Below, one piece after another: positions 37,393 through 46,250 of a stretch of DNA of 64,000 nucleotides. The notes beneath the pieces were generated by a model, which made no database searches, had not been told where the DNA came from, and worked only from the letters and a program-made list of their open reading frames with translations. The position numbers were made by a program, and so were the translations under genes. Position 1 is the stretch's first letter. Every line of letters starts with the position of its first letter. Source of the DNA: Saccostrea cucullata (taxonomy: Eukaryota); NCBI RefSeq assembly GCF_032062105.1, contig NW_026927402.1, positions 124,001-188,000 of the forward strand, in the 5' to 3' direction.

Positions 37393-38916
37393 TTATGAAT
37401 AATGTAGTTTGCTTACCTTGCCCCTTCCTCTGCGCTTGCCCTCTTCCTTGTCCTCATCGTAATCTCTGCCCTGGTCCCTGTGATCTCTGCCCTGATCCCT
37501 GTGATCTCTGCCCTGATCCCTGTTATCTCTGCCCTGATCCCTGTCCCGTCTCCTCTGCTCCTCCTGGTTCCTCTGGTACTGCGCGAATCTCTCCAGAGCG
37601 TCATGTTCGGGGAGCCTCAGCCCTGGCATAGTAAGCTGGGGACGCAGGCTGTAGCTGCCGCTAGAAAAGCTCCTGGTGTTTCCGCAGATATCGGTGGTCT
37701 GCAGGGTCCTGACGCCGCGCGCTGCTTTGGGCCGCTTGTTGATGTCGTAGGGCTTATCGCTGGGTTGAGTCTGCTGAGGCTGGGATTCAAACAACCTGTC
37801 TACATCTCGGTTGAATTCGCGCACACAGCTTTGCAGATTGCTCATTACGGCCGGTGCACTGGTGCGAGATTCAAGCGGCGGCTTGCGGGGGCCCTTAGCT
37901 GCTTTTGGGCGGATTTTCACATCACGAGTATCGATGACGTAGGAAGGGCGGTGGAAGGGTTTATTTTCAGCGGCCAGAAGTGCCATTTCTATCTCCTTCC
38001 TGGTCTGCTCACGGGAATTCCCATACATCTTGGGACTGCTCCAAGTGGATGGGCCAGCACCGGCATCCATTGGGATGTCATAGCTTGTAGAAGCTTGACC
38101 ACTGGCACTTGTTCCTGCTCCCTCCACACTGTTCCTGTCTTTACCGCTATCCCATGCCCTTGCAGACTCCTGCTTGAGATCTCTTGTTGCAGATCCATTG
38201 CAGTAGCTTTTGTTTGCCGCTTCACAGGCGTTGCTCCTCTCGACATTTCCGCTGCTAGTCTTCCTTGAAGTTCCCGGCTCAGCTGTTACACTGATGTCTT
38301 CCTCGGAAGGAATGGCGCCAATGCAGACAACTCGTGAAGAATCAACTCGATAGCTTGGGTCGTTGGACTTCAGCTTCTTCTCGTGGCTCGGCTTCTCCGG
38401 TGGCGGTTTGTAGTTGATGCGGCTTTCTCCAGACCTGCTGTTTTCTTTAGGCATGTTTCCCTGTTCTGCCTTGGACTTGCGGCGTTGTTTTTTCGGACGG
38501 GGCTGATCGAAAGCTGGGTCATCTCGTTTAGTGGTGGAAGTAGTAGTACTAACAGTTTTCTTTTTCCTACTCTCTTCAAAAATGTCGATCATCCCTGTGA
38601 TAGACACATCAGAATATGTCCTAGTGGGTAAAGGAAGCTGAGGAGTTTTCTTCTCTTGGTTACCATCAGGCCCGTTATTCTCAACTTGAGCATTCACTGA
38701 GGCGGCCTCCTCCTGGTTTCCATCAGGTCCGCTATCCACAACTTGAACAGCCACTGAGACGGTCGCTTCGTCCGCCCCCTGTTGTGGCCCTGGATCCTGA
38801 TTTTCTCTTCTTCGGTCATTTCTTCGAAAAAATTCAATGATTCTTTCCTTGATAGTACGTCGCCTTTGGCGAATTTCCACAATGGGCACTGCCTCGGTTG
38901 AGCAAGTGCATCCCAT
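37393..38916 (-). CDS. Uncharacterised ~500-aa, probably disordered protein with a predicted N-myristoylation/palmitoylation signal
   Basis: 1524-nt GC-rich ORF in AT-rich DNA, starting MGCTCS. A strong donor AAG|GTAAGC falls after codon 500 (37417), so the true end is probably spliced: the acceptor at 36812 gives ...GKN*, and the one at 36714 gives an 18-aa tail. No recognised domain. Confidence 0.8.
   Translation of the reverse strand: MGCTCSTEAVPIVEIRQRRRTIKERIIEFFRRNDRRRENQDPGPQQGADEATVSVAVQVVDSGPDGNQEEAASVNAQVENNGPDGNQEKKTPQLPLPTRTYSDVSITGMIDIFEESRKKKTVSTTTSTTKRDDPAFDQPRPKKQRRKSKAEQGNMPKENSRSGESRINYKPPPEKPSHEKKLKSNDPSYRVDSSRVVCIGAIPSEEDISVTAEPGTSRKTSSGNVERSNACEAANKSYCNGSATRDLKQESARAWDSGKDRNSVEGAGTSASGQASTSYDIPMDAGAGPSTWSSPKMYGNSREQTRKEIEMALLAAENKPFHRPSYVIDTRDVKIRPKAAKGPRKPPLESRTSAPAVMSNLQSCVREFNRDVDRLFESQPQQTQPSDKPYDINKRPKAARGVRTLQTTDICGNTRSFSSGSYSLRPQLTMPGLRLPEHDALERFAQYQRNQEEQRRRDRDQGRDNRDQGRDHRDQGRDHRDQGRDYDEDKEEGKRRGRGKVSKLHYS
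37457..37545 (-). repeat. 21-bp coding tandem repeat (RDQGRD[N/H/Y])x4
   Basis: Plus-strand unit GATCTCTGCCCTGATCCCTGT repeated about 4 times, in frame. Confidence 0.9.
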
Positions 38917-38929
38917 TGTGGAAGTACTT

Positions 38930-39570
38930 CCGTAAAATGTTTTTATCTGGTTATAAACGCTCTTTCCTTGTTACAATGGAATCAACAAACTAGATAATTC
39001 GTTTTTCCCGAAATGCCTACTCGTCTGTGACGTTTCTGTTCTATGACGTCACAATGAAAGTAAATATTCATACTCGAGGTTAAAAATATATTCCACAATA
39101 AAAAAAAGTACCCATCTACTTCATACCCAACTTAGATAAACTTAGTACATGTATGAATCTTAAAAAAGAATGGGAAAATTTTTTTACAGACTCGATACAA
39201 AATTATTTTAGAGTATTTAACGCGTACATACTTTTTATGGAATATTCGTTAATAAATGCATTTGATAATTTCAAATAGATATTTTAATGCAAGTAAAACA
39301 ATTTAAAAAATGAAGTATATGATAAGTATAGTAATTATCTGGGGAAAACACGAAAAAACGTTTTGTCTTTCAGGGAAAAAAGATCTTGTCCCTTTTTCAG
39401 TTTTGATTCTAACATTTAGAATTTTAACTGTTTCATACCTTCCAGCGAAAAAGAGTTCCACTGAAAATCTGAGAAAAGCCAGTTACAAAAGTGCTAGTTT
39501 TTTTGCCATTATTGTTTGACTTTCACCATGTAGTTTCACTAATTGTTATTATTCGTTCATGGGTAAGTAA
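38930..39570. promoter_or_regulatory. Putative divergent promoter region and candidate non-coding first exon of CNOT2
   Basis: Full CRE TGACGTCA at 39044-39051 plus a TGACGT half site upstream of the orphan ATG. Plus-strand donor GG|GTAAGT at 39562/39563. The CNOT2 ATG exon begins with an acceptor (46172), so an upstream exon is likely. Confidence 0.4.
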
Positions 39571-42203
39571 AAAAATATGCGAATATGACTGCTTTGAAGT
39601 TTTTTGCAAGAAATATCGGGTTCTTTTCCATGAAAGGTCAAGGACTTAAATATGGTTGAAGCTATTTAAAGTAAGTTGTACTATTTGTTCTGTGATACAG
39701 AAAATGCACGACGAGTTTTGATTTAATATTTGAAAGTATATTTATTTTATTCAACATTTATTTAAATGTTATTCGATTGAGTTTTCAGATGATCCGTGTA
39801 ATACACGATCGTTGATTAAATGGACCTATTCTAAATCATGTTCACACTGGTCAGTTTGGAGCCAATAACCCAAATTGGATATGAAACTTAGTAAATAAAA
39901 CTAGAATAAAGTCATTGACATTTGATATAATAGATCTTTGAACATCAGAATGGATCACACTGCATTAAAAACAGCAACTTTTGTATTATCTAATTCCTTT
40001 ATGTTTACAGTTTAGGACATTGTTTATCATGTTTTATCCCACAAACATCAAGTGAATGGAAATCAATAAATGTAAAAAGCTTAAAACTATTATATTCATT
40101 GCTTATTTTAGATTTGCGTTACATGAAAGAAGATTAATTTTCTTTATTAGGCCAAAATAAAAAATAGACTTGTTTCCTGCTACCCGACCTACCTATTTTT
40201 TTGCACCCGACCCTAAAGTTTTTTTTAGCTTTTGGGGAAAAAATTCAAAATTTTAGGAATTTCATGTTTCAAAAGTGAAAAAAAATATACTCAAGTTGTA
40301 TTACATGAAATATATTTATAAAATATGGACTTACATGAAATTCCACTTGAGTTGTGCATCAAAAGGTATGGAATTTCATTTTAAAAGATATCTACCTAGC
40401 TACAGTACCGACCGGACACAACCTAACAGAAAGCGAACCCGGAGCAGACCCCGGGTTCGCTCTCTGGGTTCGCTCCGGGTTCGCTTGGGGTCCGCTAGGG
40501 CTGACCCCGAGCGAACCCGGAGCGGACCCAAAGCGAATCCGTAGCGGACCCCGAGCGAACCCGAAGCGGGCCCAGAGAGCGAACCCAAATTTCAGTAGCG
40601 GTCCCAGAGAGCGAACGCGGGTTCGGTATTTCTGTATAGAGCTGTCAATCAGGATTAGCGATTAACCAATCAGCGCATCAACCAATCAAAATAGCATATT
40701 GATCTGTCGATTGGGATATAAGATTGAACGTGTTGATTTAATTCGATATAAATCCAAACACAGTACATACAAGCAAAATGTGTGAATGTGCTGTGTAAAT
40801 CTATTATGAAAATTAAAATATTATTTAATATTTATTTATTTTAATTCTCCGGGTTGTTTTTTATATTTATATATTTATTTTCTTATTTTATAAACGCAAT
40901 TAATTAATTATATGTTTTAAATTTCCACGTAGAATTAAACATGAATATTTACGTTTTTATTTTCTTTATTTTTTTATACCAGTATTTAAAGTCCATTTGG
41001 TAAATAAATTGGGTAAATACATCAGTCAATGCATAAAAATGGAAATCAATTGAAATTACAATTTTTACTGACAAAAAGAGGATAAAAGAAATATGGTTGG
41101 TCTTCGATAATTATTGTAAAATTTCATTATCTCAAGATACTAACAGTTCAGGAATATTAAAGTACCCAATATTTAAGTATAAATAGATACAGGAAACATC
41201 AAGACGAAAGAGAGAGAGAGAGAGAGAGAGAGAGATCATAACTGTGAATTCTCATCATTAGACTTGATTCTGATAATAAAGCCTGATGACTTTTACTTAA
41301 ATTTCTATGAGTCATCCTCCCAATACTGTACTCAAGTTGTTTTCTATAAGACTGTTGCAGCAATTTTTTTTTTTCAAAAAATATACATGTACAGGAAGAT
41401 GTATATAAAGCACAAAAAATGACCAACAGTTTTCGGGACGCTCTGTCCCTTCCTCAGGATAAAGAAAAAAGTTAAAAAGTCATAAGAACAAAGGAAAAAG
41501 AGAAACCAAAAACAACTAGTACTACTACTAAACACTATATCTATTTACATAGTTACATAGTTGAATTGGAAATTTATATAAACACTATTAAAGAAAGAAA
41601 TCCGGACAGCTATGAAATACGTCTGGTTTATCGGGGTGTACTCAGGTGAAGTGCGATTTACATAATTGAACGAATTAATTACGCTAATTAATCACGACAT
41701 TTAGTAAATCGTACATTGTTTCATTCTCTCAAAATGGCGTAACTATACTTGACAAAGAACAATCAGAGAAATATAATATAGAAGGGATATTTTAACATGT
41801 GAATTATGATCTATTATAAATTTTGAAATGTTTTAGGACTAATTATTTTTGAAAAAATAATTAATAAAGGCGTAAGCAATACATAGTTATGTGGGTTGTT
41901 CGAAAGTTGGTAACGCAAACTAACTGTAGAGTTACAGTAAATTGAAAGAATAATCTTGTTAAGTATCATCAGGAATTGGGTCTAATTCACGTTCATTCTG
42001 GTGAAGTCATTCAGATTGTTAATACCATTAGGGCAGAATGACTTCAATCTGTGCACCCAGAAGGAAGATTTTCATATACACGCATTTTTTTTTCATGTCC
42101 AAGAAGATAAAGATAATTAAGAAGATCAATCATTTTGATGTAAATTTTGAATAATTTAACGAAATACGTAAATTGAGAAATCATAAATAAAATAATTAAA
42201 TAA

Positions 42204-43520
42204 GGCCATATAAAATTAATCTTTAGATTCTCATCCCCGCCCGCCCCTCTCAAAATGTCCCGCCCCGATGTTTCTTATTTTGATTTTAGGGTATTTTCAT
42301 GTATTTTTATTCAGTAAGAATTTGGGTCAAAGTGTAAGAGTTATCTCCCGTCTGTATTAAAAGTCGCGTGTCGCTATTTATATAGCAAAAACGCCATGTG
42401 AAGAATGGAGAAAAATCGGCAATAAAAGCAGTTTAAATGTGTAAGGAAAAGATAATTTGTCAGTTTAGAGAAGGCAGAGAAGAAAAAATAGCATAAACAC
42501 ATATAGATACCATCACTGGCAGGAGCAAGTATGTAGAGAGATTGTAACTAAGTAAAAATATACGAGGAAAGTCAAGTTATATATAACGATCTCCAGCTGT
42601 GTGACTTAGCTTTGAAATAAAAAAAAAATCTACAACATCGTAGACAGACTTAAGAGAAGGCCTAGATTTTTCAGTAGAATAATTATTAGAACATTTATAT
42701 AGCTTATGCAAAATAAGAAGTCACACATACACAATTTATTGGTATCCCCACCTCATTTTGTTCAGGGTGTGCCGTCTAATGTGTACTTGATAATTTGTTA
42801 ATTAATATACACCTATTTACTGGCTATGAGGACAATAGCAAGTTTATCGTTCCCCAAGACAGCAAACTATTTCCCGAGGCGCAGCCGAGGGAAATAGTTT
42901 GCTGTCGAGGGGGACGATAAACTTGCTATTGTCCGAATAGTCAGTAAATAGGTGTTTTATTATACCGATGCTGACTTAACTTTTGTTAACTTTTGGGAGT
43001 CCAGGGTACACACAATTATGATTTGCCATATTATACCGATGCTGACTTAACTTTTGTTACGTCATAATATATACGCGTCACAATCCGAATAAAACCAGAA
43101 GTTTTCCGAGATGAAAAGCGAGGGAAATAGAATGCTGCCGGTGAATAGTTTGATGACTATTTCACCATGGGCAGATAGCACAAAAACTATTTCACGGTAG
43201 AGGCTGTTTGGAAAAAATAGCATGTTTATTTGTCATGTTTTTATATTGAACAAATTCACAGAGGTATAATAACAATAAATATTTAACTTTTAAAGCAAAA
43301 AATTTCTTTAAATATTTAAAAGAATATGAAAAGAATTAAATCTATTCATATTTGCATTAAGGTAATGAAAAAAAATGTGTACGGGGCGTCCATTTGTTTT
43401 GTTGATACTTAGGCCTATATATAAATTAACAATTATAAAAAATAAAAAATAAAATCCGCCCACCCGCCCCAATTTTTTTGCAAATTAGGATGAGAATCTA
43501 AAGATTAATTTTACCTGGCC
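42204..43520. mobile_element. Nested PIF/Harbinger-type MITE
   Basis: TIR GGCCA..TAAAATTAATCTTTAGATTCTCATCC; TAA TSD. Confidence 0.8.
42802..43272. mobile_element. Crypton-like non-autonomous element with a long palindrome
   Basis: ~145-bp imperfect palindrome at 42810-42954 centred on CGAGGCGCAGCCGAG; ends TAATATAC...GTATAATAA. The family assignment is from recollection only. Confidence 0.55.
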
Positions 43521-44691
43521 TAATTAGAATTTTTAAAGACAATGTGTGTGTGAAATAGGGGGCATATATTAAAATATTCTTATCGGGTCGGGAGAACAAT
43601 TATTATTTGCCCTTTTCTTTATTCTGAAAAAAAAAATCATACTCGATCCAAAGTTCTGACCGTGAAAAAGATCTAATATACAGTGTAATTTTTTTTTAGA
43701 AAATGTCCAGTAAATATCTATTACGAACTTTTAATGTGTAACTGCTATAAATGAAATCTAAATATATCAGATGTACAAAAGTTTACATGTAATTTATAGA
43801 TGCGATATCATAATTCACGTGTTAAGCAAACATTTAAACTACGATTTAGCAAAACGTAAGGAATAACAAATGTATTTTTAAACTATATAAAGCATACATT
43901 TAAAAGGTATTTAGTTTAGATTTATTTCGTCAGTTTCACTTGTACACCATTCGATACACTGAAAATCAATTCAACACTCTTTTCTTCCTCTTCTTTTTTG
44001 TTTTCTCATTTTAACTTAAGAAAAATAAATGCCTTATAACCCGCTGTTAAATTAGTTTGAATTTCTCGGGATCGAGAAATCAAGGAAATCAATTATTCAT
44101 CTACATGTAAATCTACGTCGAATTTACAGTTGGATTTTAGAAAATTTATCAATGTTCTCCATTATATCACTGTTTACATGTACAGTGTACGTGTCCGCAT
44201 CGTCGCATAAACAACTATGATCGATCCACAATACCATTACTGTATTGGAATATACAAGGGGCGGGGCTTACTGGCGGTGAGATTAAAGCAGGGTCCGCTT
44301 CACGCATCAGTGCGTAAAGCGGTCCCAGGAAGCGAACGCCGGGTTCGCTCTAGCGGACCCAGAGCTGACCCCGAGCGAACGCAAAGCGCACCCGGAGCGG
44401 TCCCAAAATTTCTGAAAGCGGACCCCGAGCGAACCCGGGAAGCGAACCCGGAGTCCGCTTCGGGTTCGCTCTGGTGTTAGGTTGTGTCCGGTCGGTACTG
44501 TATGGCATGTTTAATTTGGTTTTGTAGTAGTTCATATCCAAAAAATACCATTGGAAAAATTAAATAAAATTAAAAAATAAAATAATTTTCCTACCTACCT
44601 ACCCTATTTTTTTCTGGCTGGTAGCAGGAAACAAGACTATTATTTTTTTTGGCCTTATATTGATTATATTTATGTATTAATATGTATAAAT

Positions 44692-45862
44692 TAGGGATGT
44701 CAAATCGGTCAGTTTTCAATACTCGGTTACTCGGACGTTTTTCCGATCAAGTACCCGGGTACTCGGTAAAAGTGTAAATAAATATGAACAAGTAAATTGA
44801 AGACTGTCATTGTAAACTCTTGAAGAAATAAAACCAGATGCACTGATAGGAGGCTTACCCGTAAATGTATTTCTGTTGTAATAACGATGAGCACTTCGTG
44901 CCCGACAAAGTTTAATATAACAGTTTTTTAAATTCAATTTATTTATTAGATAAACACAAGAAATAAAATCATAAGTTGTTCAAGTTGTTTTTGTTTAAAA
45001 AAAATAATCTGCTCCATAACTGTAATGTAACTCTTTGTCGCGTTTGACGACCAGGTATCAGTCGTCATAATCCGAGATTCCTCTGACTCTAACCCCTGCT
45101 TTTATATTGTGACTTGCGCAGGGGAGAGACTCTCTCCCCTGCACAAGTCATAATATAAATGCAGGGGTTAGAGTCAGAGGAATCTTGGATTACAGTCGTC
45201 AGAGCTACGAACAGTATCAACTTGAACTTGATCAAGTTCTCCTAACAGAGATGATTGACGATTTTAGTACACTTGTTCGATCCGAGATTTATATAGTACT
45301 GTATTACGGGACGGTATTTTGTAGTTTGATGCAACGATGGACATCAGTTTTTTTTAAAGCCTTTGCCTTCAACCAGTTTTATTGGCATGTAATCAAACAC
45401 AACCACATCAACAATCGCACGTGTAATATCATCCGCTCTTTCCCCGAGAATTTACGGCTTCTCGGAGAATTGACAAATTTTTTAATTATCTAATTTATTT
45501 AAACATAATGGATCTTAAACGATGTTCAGTTAAAACAAATAATTAAAGCCAAACAAAAAATAAGGGAAGAAGGCAGTCGAAGGTGAGAAAAGCCAGGTAC
45601 CCCAGGTACTTGGTCACGATAATTACTGTATAAACACTGCCACAGGCGATAATGGTCATTTAGAGTCGTAGTAAACCCTAATTACTGTATGTACAAGTGA
45701 AATGAGCATTTTAAGTTTTTAAACAGATTGTTTAATGCATTAATAAATAAGATTAGAAATATTCAAAAATATACATCCGAGTAACCGAGTACCGATTTTA
45801 GTATTCGATACTCGGACGTTCGATCGAGTACCTGGTTAACCGGGTACTCGTTGACATCCCTA
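44692..45862. mobile_element. hAT-type non-autonomous element
   Basis: TIR TAGGGATGTCAA; 8-bp TSD GTATAAAT/ATATAAAT (one mismatch); subterminal TACTCGG/GTACCCGG motifs. Confidence 0.8.
45068..45192. mobile_element. 125-bp foldback MITE with a 9-bp TSD (Mutator-like), nested in the hAT element
   Basis: Near-perfect palindrome TAATCCGAGATTCCTCTGACTCTAACCCCTGC...GCAGGGGTTAGAGTCAGAGGAATCTTGGATTA; CAGTCGTCA on both flanks. Confidence 0.85.
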
Positions 45863-46250
45863 ATATAAATATTAGATGTTTATATTTACATGATTATATT
45901 TTTTGTTTTGCATTGAAAAATTACATTCAGGATTTAATGTTGAATATAAAACTGTAAGACTACTATTGGACATACTCATAACTTGTTGTTGATTTCTGGT
46001 TTTCAGATAGATAGGATAATTCAATATTGGAGTTATTGTTGCTTTGAATTGATTAAAATCAAGTTTTGTCCAATTTTGAAATATGATTTTCTTCAAGTTC
46101 TTGCCTGTTCATGACTTAAAAGAAGACATTCAGATGCCTATTTGAAGTAATCTTACAATATTATAATTTCAGTTGTACCTGTTTAAGTTTTGTCACATTT
46201 GAAGAACATCGCCAACGCAGACTTGGGATAAAAACCATCAACACGTCTTA

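What the first reader, a model, noticed from the sequence alone, without database searches (positions are those of the whole stretch)
37393..38916. Orphan ~500-aa protein with a dual-acylation N-terminus and internal repeated motifs, between ERCC3 and CNOT2
Seen: one 1500-nt GC- and CpG-rich exon amid genes with small exons. The N-terminus MGCTCS fits the MGxxxS myristoylation consensus, with Cys3 and Cys5 available for palmitoylation, and is followed by a basic amphipathic stretch (RQRRRTIKERIIEFFRR). Repeats: GPDGNQE x2, RPKAA[K/R]G x2 (each with KP[F/Y] upstream), and RDQGRD[N/H/Y] x4. There is an NLS-like PRPKKQRRK, and short helical islands in a polar chain. I recognise no domain. Inference: a lineage-specific membrane-tethered disordered scaffold, perhaps tissue-restricted given its retained CpGs.
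Basis: partly seen in the sequence, partly recalled or inferred. Interest (0 to 1): 0.7.

Follow-up and report, generated by a model that had tools for sequence, protein, structure and literature searches.

The report
Bivalve-wide lipid-anchored tandem-motif scaffold family
This is a real, spliced oyster gene, read in only some RNA samples, whose floppy protein belongs to an unnamed family shared by oysters, mussels, scallops and freshwater mussels; it is likely pinned to cell membranes by fatty-acid anchors and likely uses an undescribed repeated short motif to hold signalling enzymes there.

Summary
The gene is real but not an orphan and not single-exon. RNA shows a 604-nt intron after codon 500, giving the 501-aa RefSeq protein XP_062612648. 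Relatives carry names from eight bivalve species (oysters, Pinctada, Mytilus, Pecten, unionids); none named lies outside bivalves. The family keeps Met-Gly plus an early Cys (17 of 22 rows), a basic amphipathic helix, repeats of RPxAA[KR]GxR (21 of 22 rows; 1-4 copies), a helix between them and a C-terminal RPQLTVP-helix module. GPDGNQE, RDQGRD and the 'NLS' are private to this species. The core is under purifying selection (14 of 16 listed differences silent). Reads cover the gene in 1 of 3 raw RNA runs while both neighbours are read in all three; a CRE-type element is conserved upstream of the gene and of a truncated paralogue. No Pfam, Atlas or fold match; AlphaFold shows isolated helices only. 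Best reading: an acylated, membrane-tethered, disordered adaptor that docks signalling enzymes; the partner is not shown. Calcineurin, JNK and capping-protein motif definitions were tested and not met. The scan had not noted this family before.

The parts
37417..38916 (-). Coding part of exon 1 (codons 1-500)
   Evidence: identical to RefSeq XP_062612648
36813..37416 (-). 604-nt GT..AG intron, phase 0, just before the last codon
   Evidence: joint 36812-37417 in 6 reads of run X9 and one contig of X1; donor and acceptor read
36570..36812 (-). Exon 2: last codon (Asn) and stop at 36812-36807, then 3' UTR reaching at least 36570
   Evidence: contigs over 36570-36812
37082..37363 (+). Dispersed repeat in the intron, likely a tRNA-derived SINE (A/B-box look recalled)
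   Evidence: 1953 first-look candidates in the genome, 40 scored, 69-90% identity; very high read depth with loose ends
38899..38916 (-). MGCTCS: predicted N-myristoylation (Gly2, Ser6) and S-acylation (Cys3, Cys5)
   Evidence: MG plus Cys at 3-9 in 17 of 22 rows, MGxxx[ST] in 14 of 22; lipidation itself not tested
38815..38883 (-). Basic amphipathic helix, residues 12-34
   Evidence: pLDDT 83-88; hydrophobic moment in the top 2% of windows; net charge +3 or more over residues 8-45 in 13 of 17 MG-starting rows
38563..38616 (-). YSDxSI-x-x-MI helix (residues 101-118), shared with the oyster-group proteins and four short N-half-only relatives
   Evidence: 4 of 22 rows and 4 of 4 short relatives
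38476..38502 (-).
   Evidence: 1 of 22 rows; four non-synonymous differences at codons 140-143 in a relative's RNA
38653..38734 (-). GPDGNQE x2; species-private duplication
   Evidence: D8; 1 of 22 rows
37885..37911 (-). RPxAA[KR]GxR motif, copy 1 (residues 336-344)
   Evidence: 40 copies in 21 of 22 rows
37786..37851 (-). Central amphipathic helix (residues 356-377, CVREFNRDVDRLF)
   Evidence: pLDDT 74-84; strongest hydrophobic moment; pattern found in 15 of 22 rows
37708..37734 (-). RPxAA[KR]GxR motif, copy 2 (residues 395-403)
37573..37644 (-). C-terminal module RPQLT[VM]P-x-L/I ... L-x-x-W/F-x-x-x-Q (residues 425-448)
   Evidence: [RK]xxLT[VMA] in 18 of 22 rows with fixed spacing to the helix; pLDDT 92-93 for the helix
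37438..37563 (-). 21-nt tandem repeat encoding RDQGRD[N/H/Y] x4; species-private
   Evidence: D2; 1 of 22 rows, absent from S. echinata
39028..39051 (.). Full TGACGTCA palindrome (39044-39051) and a half site (39028-39033); CRE/ATF-type label recalled
   Evidence: 15 of 15 and 10 of 10 bases kept upstream of the paralogue, where the palindrome occurs twice; RNA contigs reach 39018
39455..39561 (+). Likely first exon of the downstream NOT2/3/5 gene, head-to-head about 435 bp from this gene's 5' end
   Evidence: joint 39561-46172 GT..AG in all three raw runs; read ends pile at 39455; link to the NOT2/3/5 domain inferred

Best explanation
The gene is transcribed, spliced and conserved across bivalves, and encodes a mostly disordered protein that is likely myristoylated and palmitoylated at its start and so likely held on a membrane, where its repeated RPxAA[KR]GxR motifs and its RPQLTVP-helix module likely dock signalling enzymes. 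Shown: gene structure, transcription, selection on the core, family range, lack of a globular fold. Inferred: (1) Gly2 myristoylation, then Cys acylation, with the basic helix 12-34 as a third membrane contact; (2) a 250-residue variable linker that lets the core reach partners; (3) the repeat engages a basophilic protein kinase, its near-invariant Ala sitting where the phospho-acceptor would be (Arg at -3, Lys/Arg at +2), so that it anchors or restrains the kinase; (4) the C-terminal module binds a second partner, with the conserved Thr fitting a 14-3-3 mode II site once phosphorylated; (5) the upstream CRE-type element makes expression cell-type- or stimulus-dependent. Steps 1-2 are about 80% likely, 'docks signalling enzymes' about 55%, the specific kinase pseudosubstrate reading about 15-20%.
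For: MG plus early Cys in 17 of 22 rows, and none of the other five starts with MG at all (they look N-terminally cut or rearranged). 40 motif copies in 21 of 22 rows: Ala at the candidate acceptor in 38, Ser in 1, Gly in 1; basic at +2 in 37, at -5 in 20. Rxxx[ST]xP (mode II as given in PMC8837530, one passage seen) in 15 of 22 rows, 5.4 expected from shuffles. 14 of 16 listed differences in codons 295-455 are silent against 22% expected, p 6e-8; a 33-nt net in-frame indel in the relative's RNA. No fold: pTM 0.26 and 0.20, Foldseek nothing at E<=0.001. Reads in X9 (about 65) but none in X8 or X10, which carry ERCC3 joints as well or better. TGACGTCA block conserved with the paralogue. Precedent for the architecture: calcimembrin, a disordered N-myristoylated, S-acylated protein that recruits calcineurin by short motifs (PMC12612047, passages).
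Against: No partner is shown. None of the enzyme-docking definitions tested is fully met: extended calcineurin LxVP 2 of 22, JIP1- and NFAT4-type MAPK patterns 0 of 22, RVxF 2 of 22. The motif counts come from a pattern I wrote from the alignment, which allowed only A/G/S/M at the candidate acceptor, so they are partly built in. The invariant Pro, Gly and last Arg of the repeat are not explained by the kinase reading, and invariant Leu and the fixed helix are more than 14-3-3 needs. Four MG rows lack a clearly basic N-terminal stretch. One X3 contig shows a 2-base deletion at 38816; it may come from the paralogue or another allele and was not resolved. Tissues of the runs are coded, so tissue versus stimulus cannot be told. 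The 22 rows include near-duplicates.
Confidence: 0.55

Rival explanations
1. Membrane-cytoskeleton linker: each helix plus following hydrophobic-RPK motif binds actin, capping protein or tubulin, and the tandem copies give avidity for a polymer.
For: Variable copy number (1-4 per protein); RPK core resembles the second half of the capping-protein motif; a Pro falls 7 residues after RPx in 14 of 22 rows, 2.6 expected; an amphipathic helix precedes each copy in the oyster protein.
Against: The CPI consensus LxHxTxxRPK(x)6P (PMC5491179, passages) is met in 0 of 22 rows, its half RPK(x)6P also in 0; the distance from the central helix to the next motif varies from a few to about 17 residues, unlike WH2 (recalled); no Pfam or PDB match.
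Confidence: 0.2
2. Calcineurin or MAP-kinase anchor: RPQLTVP is an LxVP-, PxIxIT- or D-type docking site, and the protein works as calcimembrin does.
For: LxVP core in 12 of 22 rows (1.5 expected) and Lx[VM]P in 15; LTVP is a proven calcineurin site in NHE1 (PMC6677818, passages); PxLxV in 13 of 22; GxR[TS]P proline-directed sites in 7 of 22.
Against: The extended definition [NQDESRTH]-[YTDFILV]-L-x-V-P (PMC5156906, passages) is met in 2 of 22, the family having Pro-Gln there; the x position is said to be free, yet Thr is kept; the loose D-motif consensus (PMC4670726, passages) matches 22 of 22 but 21.4 by chance; the oyster protein itself has LTMP.
Confidence: 0.12
3. MARCKS-like electrostatic switch: the basic motifs simply bind acidic lipids or calmodulin and are released by phosphorylation; no folded partner needs the exact sequence.
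For: Acylation signal, basic clusters and Ser/Thr right after the repeat in 25 of 40 copies.
Against: Strict conservation of Pro, Ala-Ala, Gly and of the W/F helix over the family, and near-absence of amino-acid change in the core, point to a shaped binding surface, not charge alone.
Confidence: 0.08
4. Not a host protein gene: a transposon or viral frame, or a decaying pseudogene.
For: One large GC-rich exon among small-exon genes; a stop-broken paralogue exists; tandem copies in Mytilus and Pecten.
Against: One full copy in the genome, spliced RNA, purifying selection, tree groups follow host taxa, no hit in viral contigs, PHROGs or Pfam.
Confidence: 0.02

Closest known systems
Calcimembrin / C16orf74 (PMC12612047, passages seen)
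   Same: Disordered, Gly2 plus early Cys, membrane recruitment of an enzyme by short motifs; both carry an LxVP-like string.
   Different: No sequence match found to it in Pfam or PDB searches; five times longer; no LxVPxIxIT composite; carries a repeated RPxAA[KR]GxR motif and three conserved helices.
Dual-acylated anchors smAKAP/C2orf88 and AKAP18-alpha (recalled, from no call)
   Same: MG-Cys start and amphipathic helices in a disordered chain.
   Different: The central helix has a polar residue (Asn, Glu, Lys) after its Phe/Leu where AKAP helices have paired hydrophobics (read by eye); no family match.
Pseudosubstrate kinase inhibitors such as PKI and the PKC regulatory segment (recalled, from no call)
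   Same: Basic residues around an Ala at the acceptor position.
   Different: Lacks the RRxA pattern of PKI; has invariant Pro, Gly and a further Arg; is repeated and lipid-anchored.
CPI-motif proteins (CARMIL, CD2AP, twinfilin tail; PMC5491179, PMC6249002, passages)
   Same: RPK followed by a basic stretch and often a Pro.
   Different: No LxHxT half; Pro one residue too far; 0 of 22 rows meet the consensus.
RefSeq XP_062612648 'uncharacterized protein DDB_G0284459-like'
   Same: Is this protein.
   Different: The name likely reflects low-complexity similarity; no function is attached and searches found no paper on it.

Membership tests
N-myristoylated, S-acylated (SH4-type) membrane proteins | Gly2, Ser/Thr6, Cys near the N-terminus, start Met is the true start | tested here: met
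   (17 of 22; 14 of 22 with Ser/Thr6); no upstream in-frame ATG before the stop at 38970. Two Logan relatives are called from an upstream Met.
N-myristoylated, S-acylated (SH4-type) membrane proteins | Lipids actually attached; membrane location | not testable with these tools
   needs labelling and imaging
Calcimembrin / calcineurin LxVP ligands | polar-hydrophobic-L-x-V-P (PMC5156906) | tested here: not met
   2 of 22 rows; this protein has PQLTMP
Calcimembrin / calcineurin LxVP ligands | PxIxIT site (pattern recalled) | tested here: not met
   5 of 22 rows, 2.4 by chance, not this protein
MAPK D-motif proteins | JIP1- or NFAT4-class spacing (patterns recalled; classes from PMC4670726) | tested here: not met
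   0 of 22 each
MAPK D-motif proteins | Loose consensus basic-x(0-5)-phi-x(1,2)-phi-x-phi | tested here: inconclusive
   22 of 22 against 21.4 in shuffles
CPI-motif capping-protein regulators | LxHxTxxRPK(x)6P | tested here: not met
   0 of 22
14-3-3 mode II clients | RXXXp[ST]XP sequence | tested here: met
   15 of 22 against 5.4; short and common pattern
14-3-3 mode II clients | Thr phosphorylated and bound | not testable with these tools
   needs phosphoproteomics and binding
Kinase pseudosubstrate inhibitors | Substrate-like basic pattern with Ala at the acceptor | tested here: inconclusive
   38 of 40 Ala, 37 of 40 basic at +2, but the pattern was self-defined and no kinase was matched
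Any Pfam, PHROG, PDB or ESM-Atlas family | Profile, feature or fold match | tested here: not met
   best Pfam E 0.005 in 1 of 17 members; the cytochrome c555 hit is three summed stretches of i-E 1.3-5.1
Transposon or viral ORF | Multi-copy, terminal repeats or viral relatives | tested here: not met

The most novel reading that the evidence does not exclude
An inducible, lipid-anchored, multi-pseudosubstrate kinase brake special to bivalves: a CRE-driven gene whose product sits on the membrane, holds one or several basophilic kinases through tandem RPxAA[KR]GxR motifs (an undescribed linear motif) and is switched by phosphorylation of RPQLT and 14-3-3 binding, forming a negative-feedback loop.
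Probability: 0.15. Interest if true: 0.65.

Novelty: new variant of a known kind. Interest (0 to 1): 0.4.

Why it matters
It turns an apparent orphan into an old bivalve family with two conserved, undescribed linear modules that can be made as peptides and used as bait at once. New short motifs under strong selection usually point to a conserved binding surface on a well-known partner, so finding the partner could add a docking motif usable beyond molluscs. It also gives a patchily expressed oyster gene sharing a promoter region with a housekeeping gene. The general kind (acylated disordered adaptor) is known, which limits surprise.

Tried and rejected
Pfam on the protein and on 17 family members, PHROGs on 4 members, ESM Atlas whole and core, Foldseek against PDB: nothing usable. 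PDB profile hit to an engineered cytochrome c555 trimer rejected as three summed weak stretches. JGI metagenome and viral contig scans gave 262 and 13 pattern matches, none a relative, so no genomic context of relatives was obtained and synteny stays untested. Clathrin-box (5 of 22, 2.3 by chance; not in this protein), RVxF (2 of 22) and canonical tankyrase (2 of 22) patterns, all recalled, rejected; RxxxAxG (20 of 22) merely restates the repeat. NLS reading rejected. Rfam over 34500-41500: only sub-threshold microRNA matches on an inverted repeat. Paper searches for accession and locus numbers, the RefSeq name with oyster, the motif strings and bivalve acylation terms found 0 papers; supplementary tables were not searched and may list these genes.

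Full report
Observation. The minus strand holds a stop-free frame from an ATG at 38916 to a stop at 37393, 507 codons; the longest frame in 2000 base shuffles was 309. The frame is 52% GC in a 34% window. CpG o/e is 0.68, above six ERCC3 exons (0.24) and the downstream gene body (0.38) but near the window mean (0.60); in Pacific oyster, CpG o/e tracks methylation and tissue-variable genes are less methylated (PMC3840415, passages). ERCC3 lies upstream and a NOT2/3/5-domain gene downstream.

Gene structure. The protein equals RefSeq XP_062612648 of Saccostrea cucullata except at the very end. RNA of a related organism (about 90-95% alike) explains this: six raw reads in X9 and a contig in X1 join 37417 to 36812 across a GT..AG intron, giving a 501-aa protein ending GRGKN. 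The intron holds a dispersed repeat. RNA contigs reach 39018; reads of a plus-strand exon at about 39455-39561 splice to 46172 in all three raw runs, so the gene likely shares a short head-to-head promoter region with the downstream gene. A TGACGTCA palindrome at 39044-39051 and a half site are kept, 15 of 15 and 10 of 10 bases, upstream of a paralogue on contig C8091, where the palindrome occurs twice; the window has 4 such palindromes, 0.37 expected. The paralogue covers the N-terminal half, with a stop after 137 codons and more stops beyond.

Expression and selection. Four of 24 listed runs were laid in each of two calls (six different runs). The coding region has reads in X9 (about 65) and none in X8 or X10, from the same study, while ERCC3 joints are read in all three (for 29491-29732: 22, 10, 17 reads). 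Contigs in X1, X2 and X3 also cover it; these cannot show level, and X1 and X2 are only guessed to be RNA. Of the 40 best-supported differences shown (292 in all), 23 lie in the frame: 14 silent, 9 not; in codons 295-455, 14 of 16 are silent against 22% expected (p 6e-8), while codons 140-143 of the proposed NLS all change. Reads under 85% alike are not counted, so variable parts are under-sampled. A 34-for-1 base replacement at 38769-38804 keeps the frame; one X3 contig shows a 2-base gap at 38816 that I did not resolve.

Family. Three word-index searches gave 6, 8 and 9 proteins; a full HMMER scan of 1.84 billion representatives with a six-sequence profile gave 18 at E<=0.001. Named members come from S. 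cucullata, S. echinata, Pinctada imbricata, Mytilus edulis, M. coruscus, Pecten maximus, Sinanodonta woodiana and Potamilus streckersoni; ten of my 22 working rows are unnamed ENA, Logan or JGI records, so a range beyond bivalves is not excluded. I left out near-identical or cut cluster members (P0005, P0006, P0036, P0040, P0042, P0052, P0055-P0058 and other Logan members) and counted four short N-half-only relatives apart; near-duplicates remain. On a tree, named taxa form groups needing the least possible 5 changes (shuffled mean 7.7), with long branches and weak deep support. Conserved: MG plus Cys at 3-9 (17 of 22), RPxAA[KR]GxR (40 copies, 21 of 22), a central helix (15 of 22), and [RK]xxLT[VMA] followed at fixed distance by L-x-x-W/F-x-x-x-Q (18 of 22 for the first part). 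GPDGNQE, RDQGRD and PRPKKQRRK occur in this protein alone. Lengths run from about 200 to 630 aa, the linker taking up the difference.

Structure. AlphaFold with 17 and 21 sequences gives pTM 0.26 and 0.20, with confident isolated helices only; Foldseek, Pfam, PHROGs, PDB profile and ESM Atlas give nothing usable. Shallow alignments could hide a small fold.

Mechanism. Conservation falls on a lipid-anchor signal at one end and short motifs with helices at the other, joined by a free linker: the layout of a membrane-tethered adaptor, as in calcimembrin (PMC12612047, passages). Which partner is open. The repeat reads as a basophilic kinase site with Ala at the acceptor (38 of 40; Ser in one Sinanodonta copy), which suggests a kinase anchor or brake, but the pattern was my own and kinase preferences are recalled. 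RPQLTVP fits the 14-3-3 mode II pattern (PMC8837530, one passage; 15 of 22 against 5.4) and holds an LxVP core like NHE1's LTVP (PMC6677818, passages) but fails the extended calcineurin definition (PMC5156906, passages; 2 of 22). CPI (PMC5491179, passages; PMC6249002, passages) and class-specific MAPK patterns (PMC4670726, passages) are met in 0 of 22. No complex could be folded. I therefore commit to an acylated adaptor for signalling enzymes at 0.55, with a cytoskeletal linker (0.2), a calcineurin or MAPK anchor proper (0.12) and a charge switch (0.08) as rivals.

Novelty. Four paper searches found nothing on the accessions, the name, the motif strings or acylated bivalve unknowns; supplements were not searched. 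The scan's index held no look-alike sequence and nothing nearby; two notes on other lipid-anchored proteins concern other families and were not tested. Verdict: a real gene of an undescribed bivalve family with undescribed linear motifs, a new variant of a known kind of protein; interest 0.4.

Noticed in passing
G000:C8091:19217-19885 (L005:4217-4885, minus): Truncated paralogue: 137-codon frame with the MGC start and YSxxSITEMI helix, then stops; promoter block with the TGACGTCA site duplicated; neighbours on the contig look like deoxyhypusine hydroxylase and a C9orf72-like gene (labels recalled).
   Followed up: partly
P0043, P0044, P0046, P0048: Short 126-179 aa relatives with only the N-terminal half, ending in an L-E-x-L-L-like tail; may be a separate small acylated subfamily that the C8091 copy resembles.
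   Followed up: partly
P0061, P0062, P0052/P0059, P0057/P0058: Signs of tandem copies in Mytilus and Pecten: consecutive accession numbers, shared contig lengths, and P0062 with a C-terminal module placed before an internal MGTSCTK start, likely two neighbouring copies fused by annotation.
   Followed up: no
P0007, P0037, P0039, P0041, P0047, P0054, P0061-P0064: An acidic L-E-L-I-D-L-E-N-E-like motif before the first repeat in 11 of 22 rows, resembling a clathrin box or SUMO-binding motif (recalled); the oyster protein has a helix there instead.
   Followed up: partly
window 40420-40625: Array of 11-nt units forming long inverted repeats (48-nt arms, 90% complementary) in the first intron of the downstream gene; high-copy in RNA, likely a MITE-like element.
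   Followed up: no
window 35380-36070: About 240-bp unit in three diverged copies in the likely 3' UTR region between this gene and ERCC3 (D3, D13).
   Followed up: no
window 10983, 13649, 18189: Three more perfect TGACGTCA palindromes; 4 in the window against 0.37 expected.
   Followed up: no
G000 contigs C12628, C5179, C3823, C11094, C6781: Many clustered actin genes (140 matches, about 29 near-whole second exons), several with broken copies.
   Followed up: no
window 22796-22868: tRNA-like element of undetermined type, probably a SINE head.
   Followed up: no
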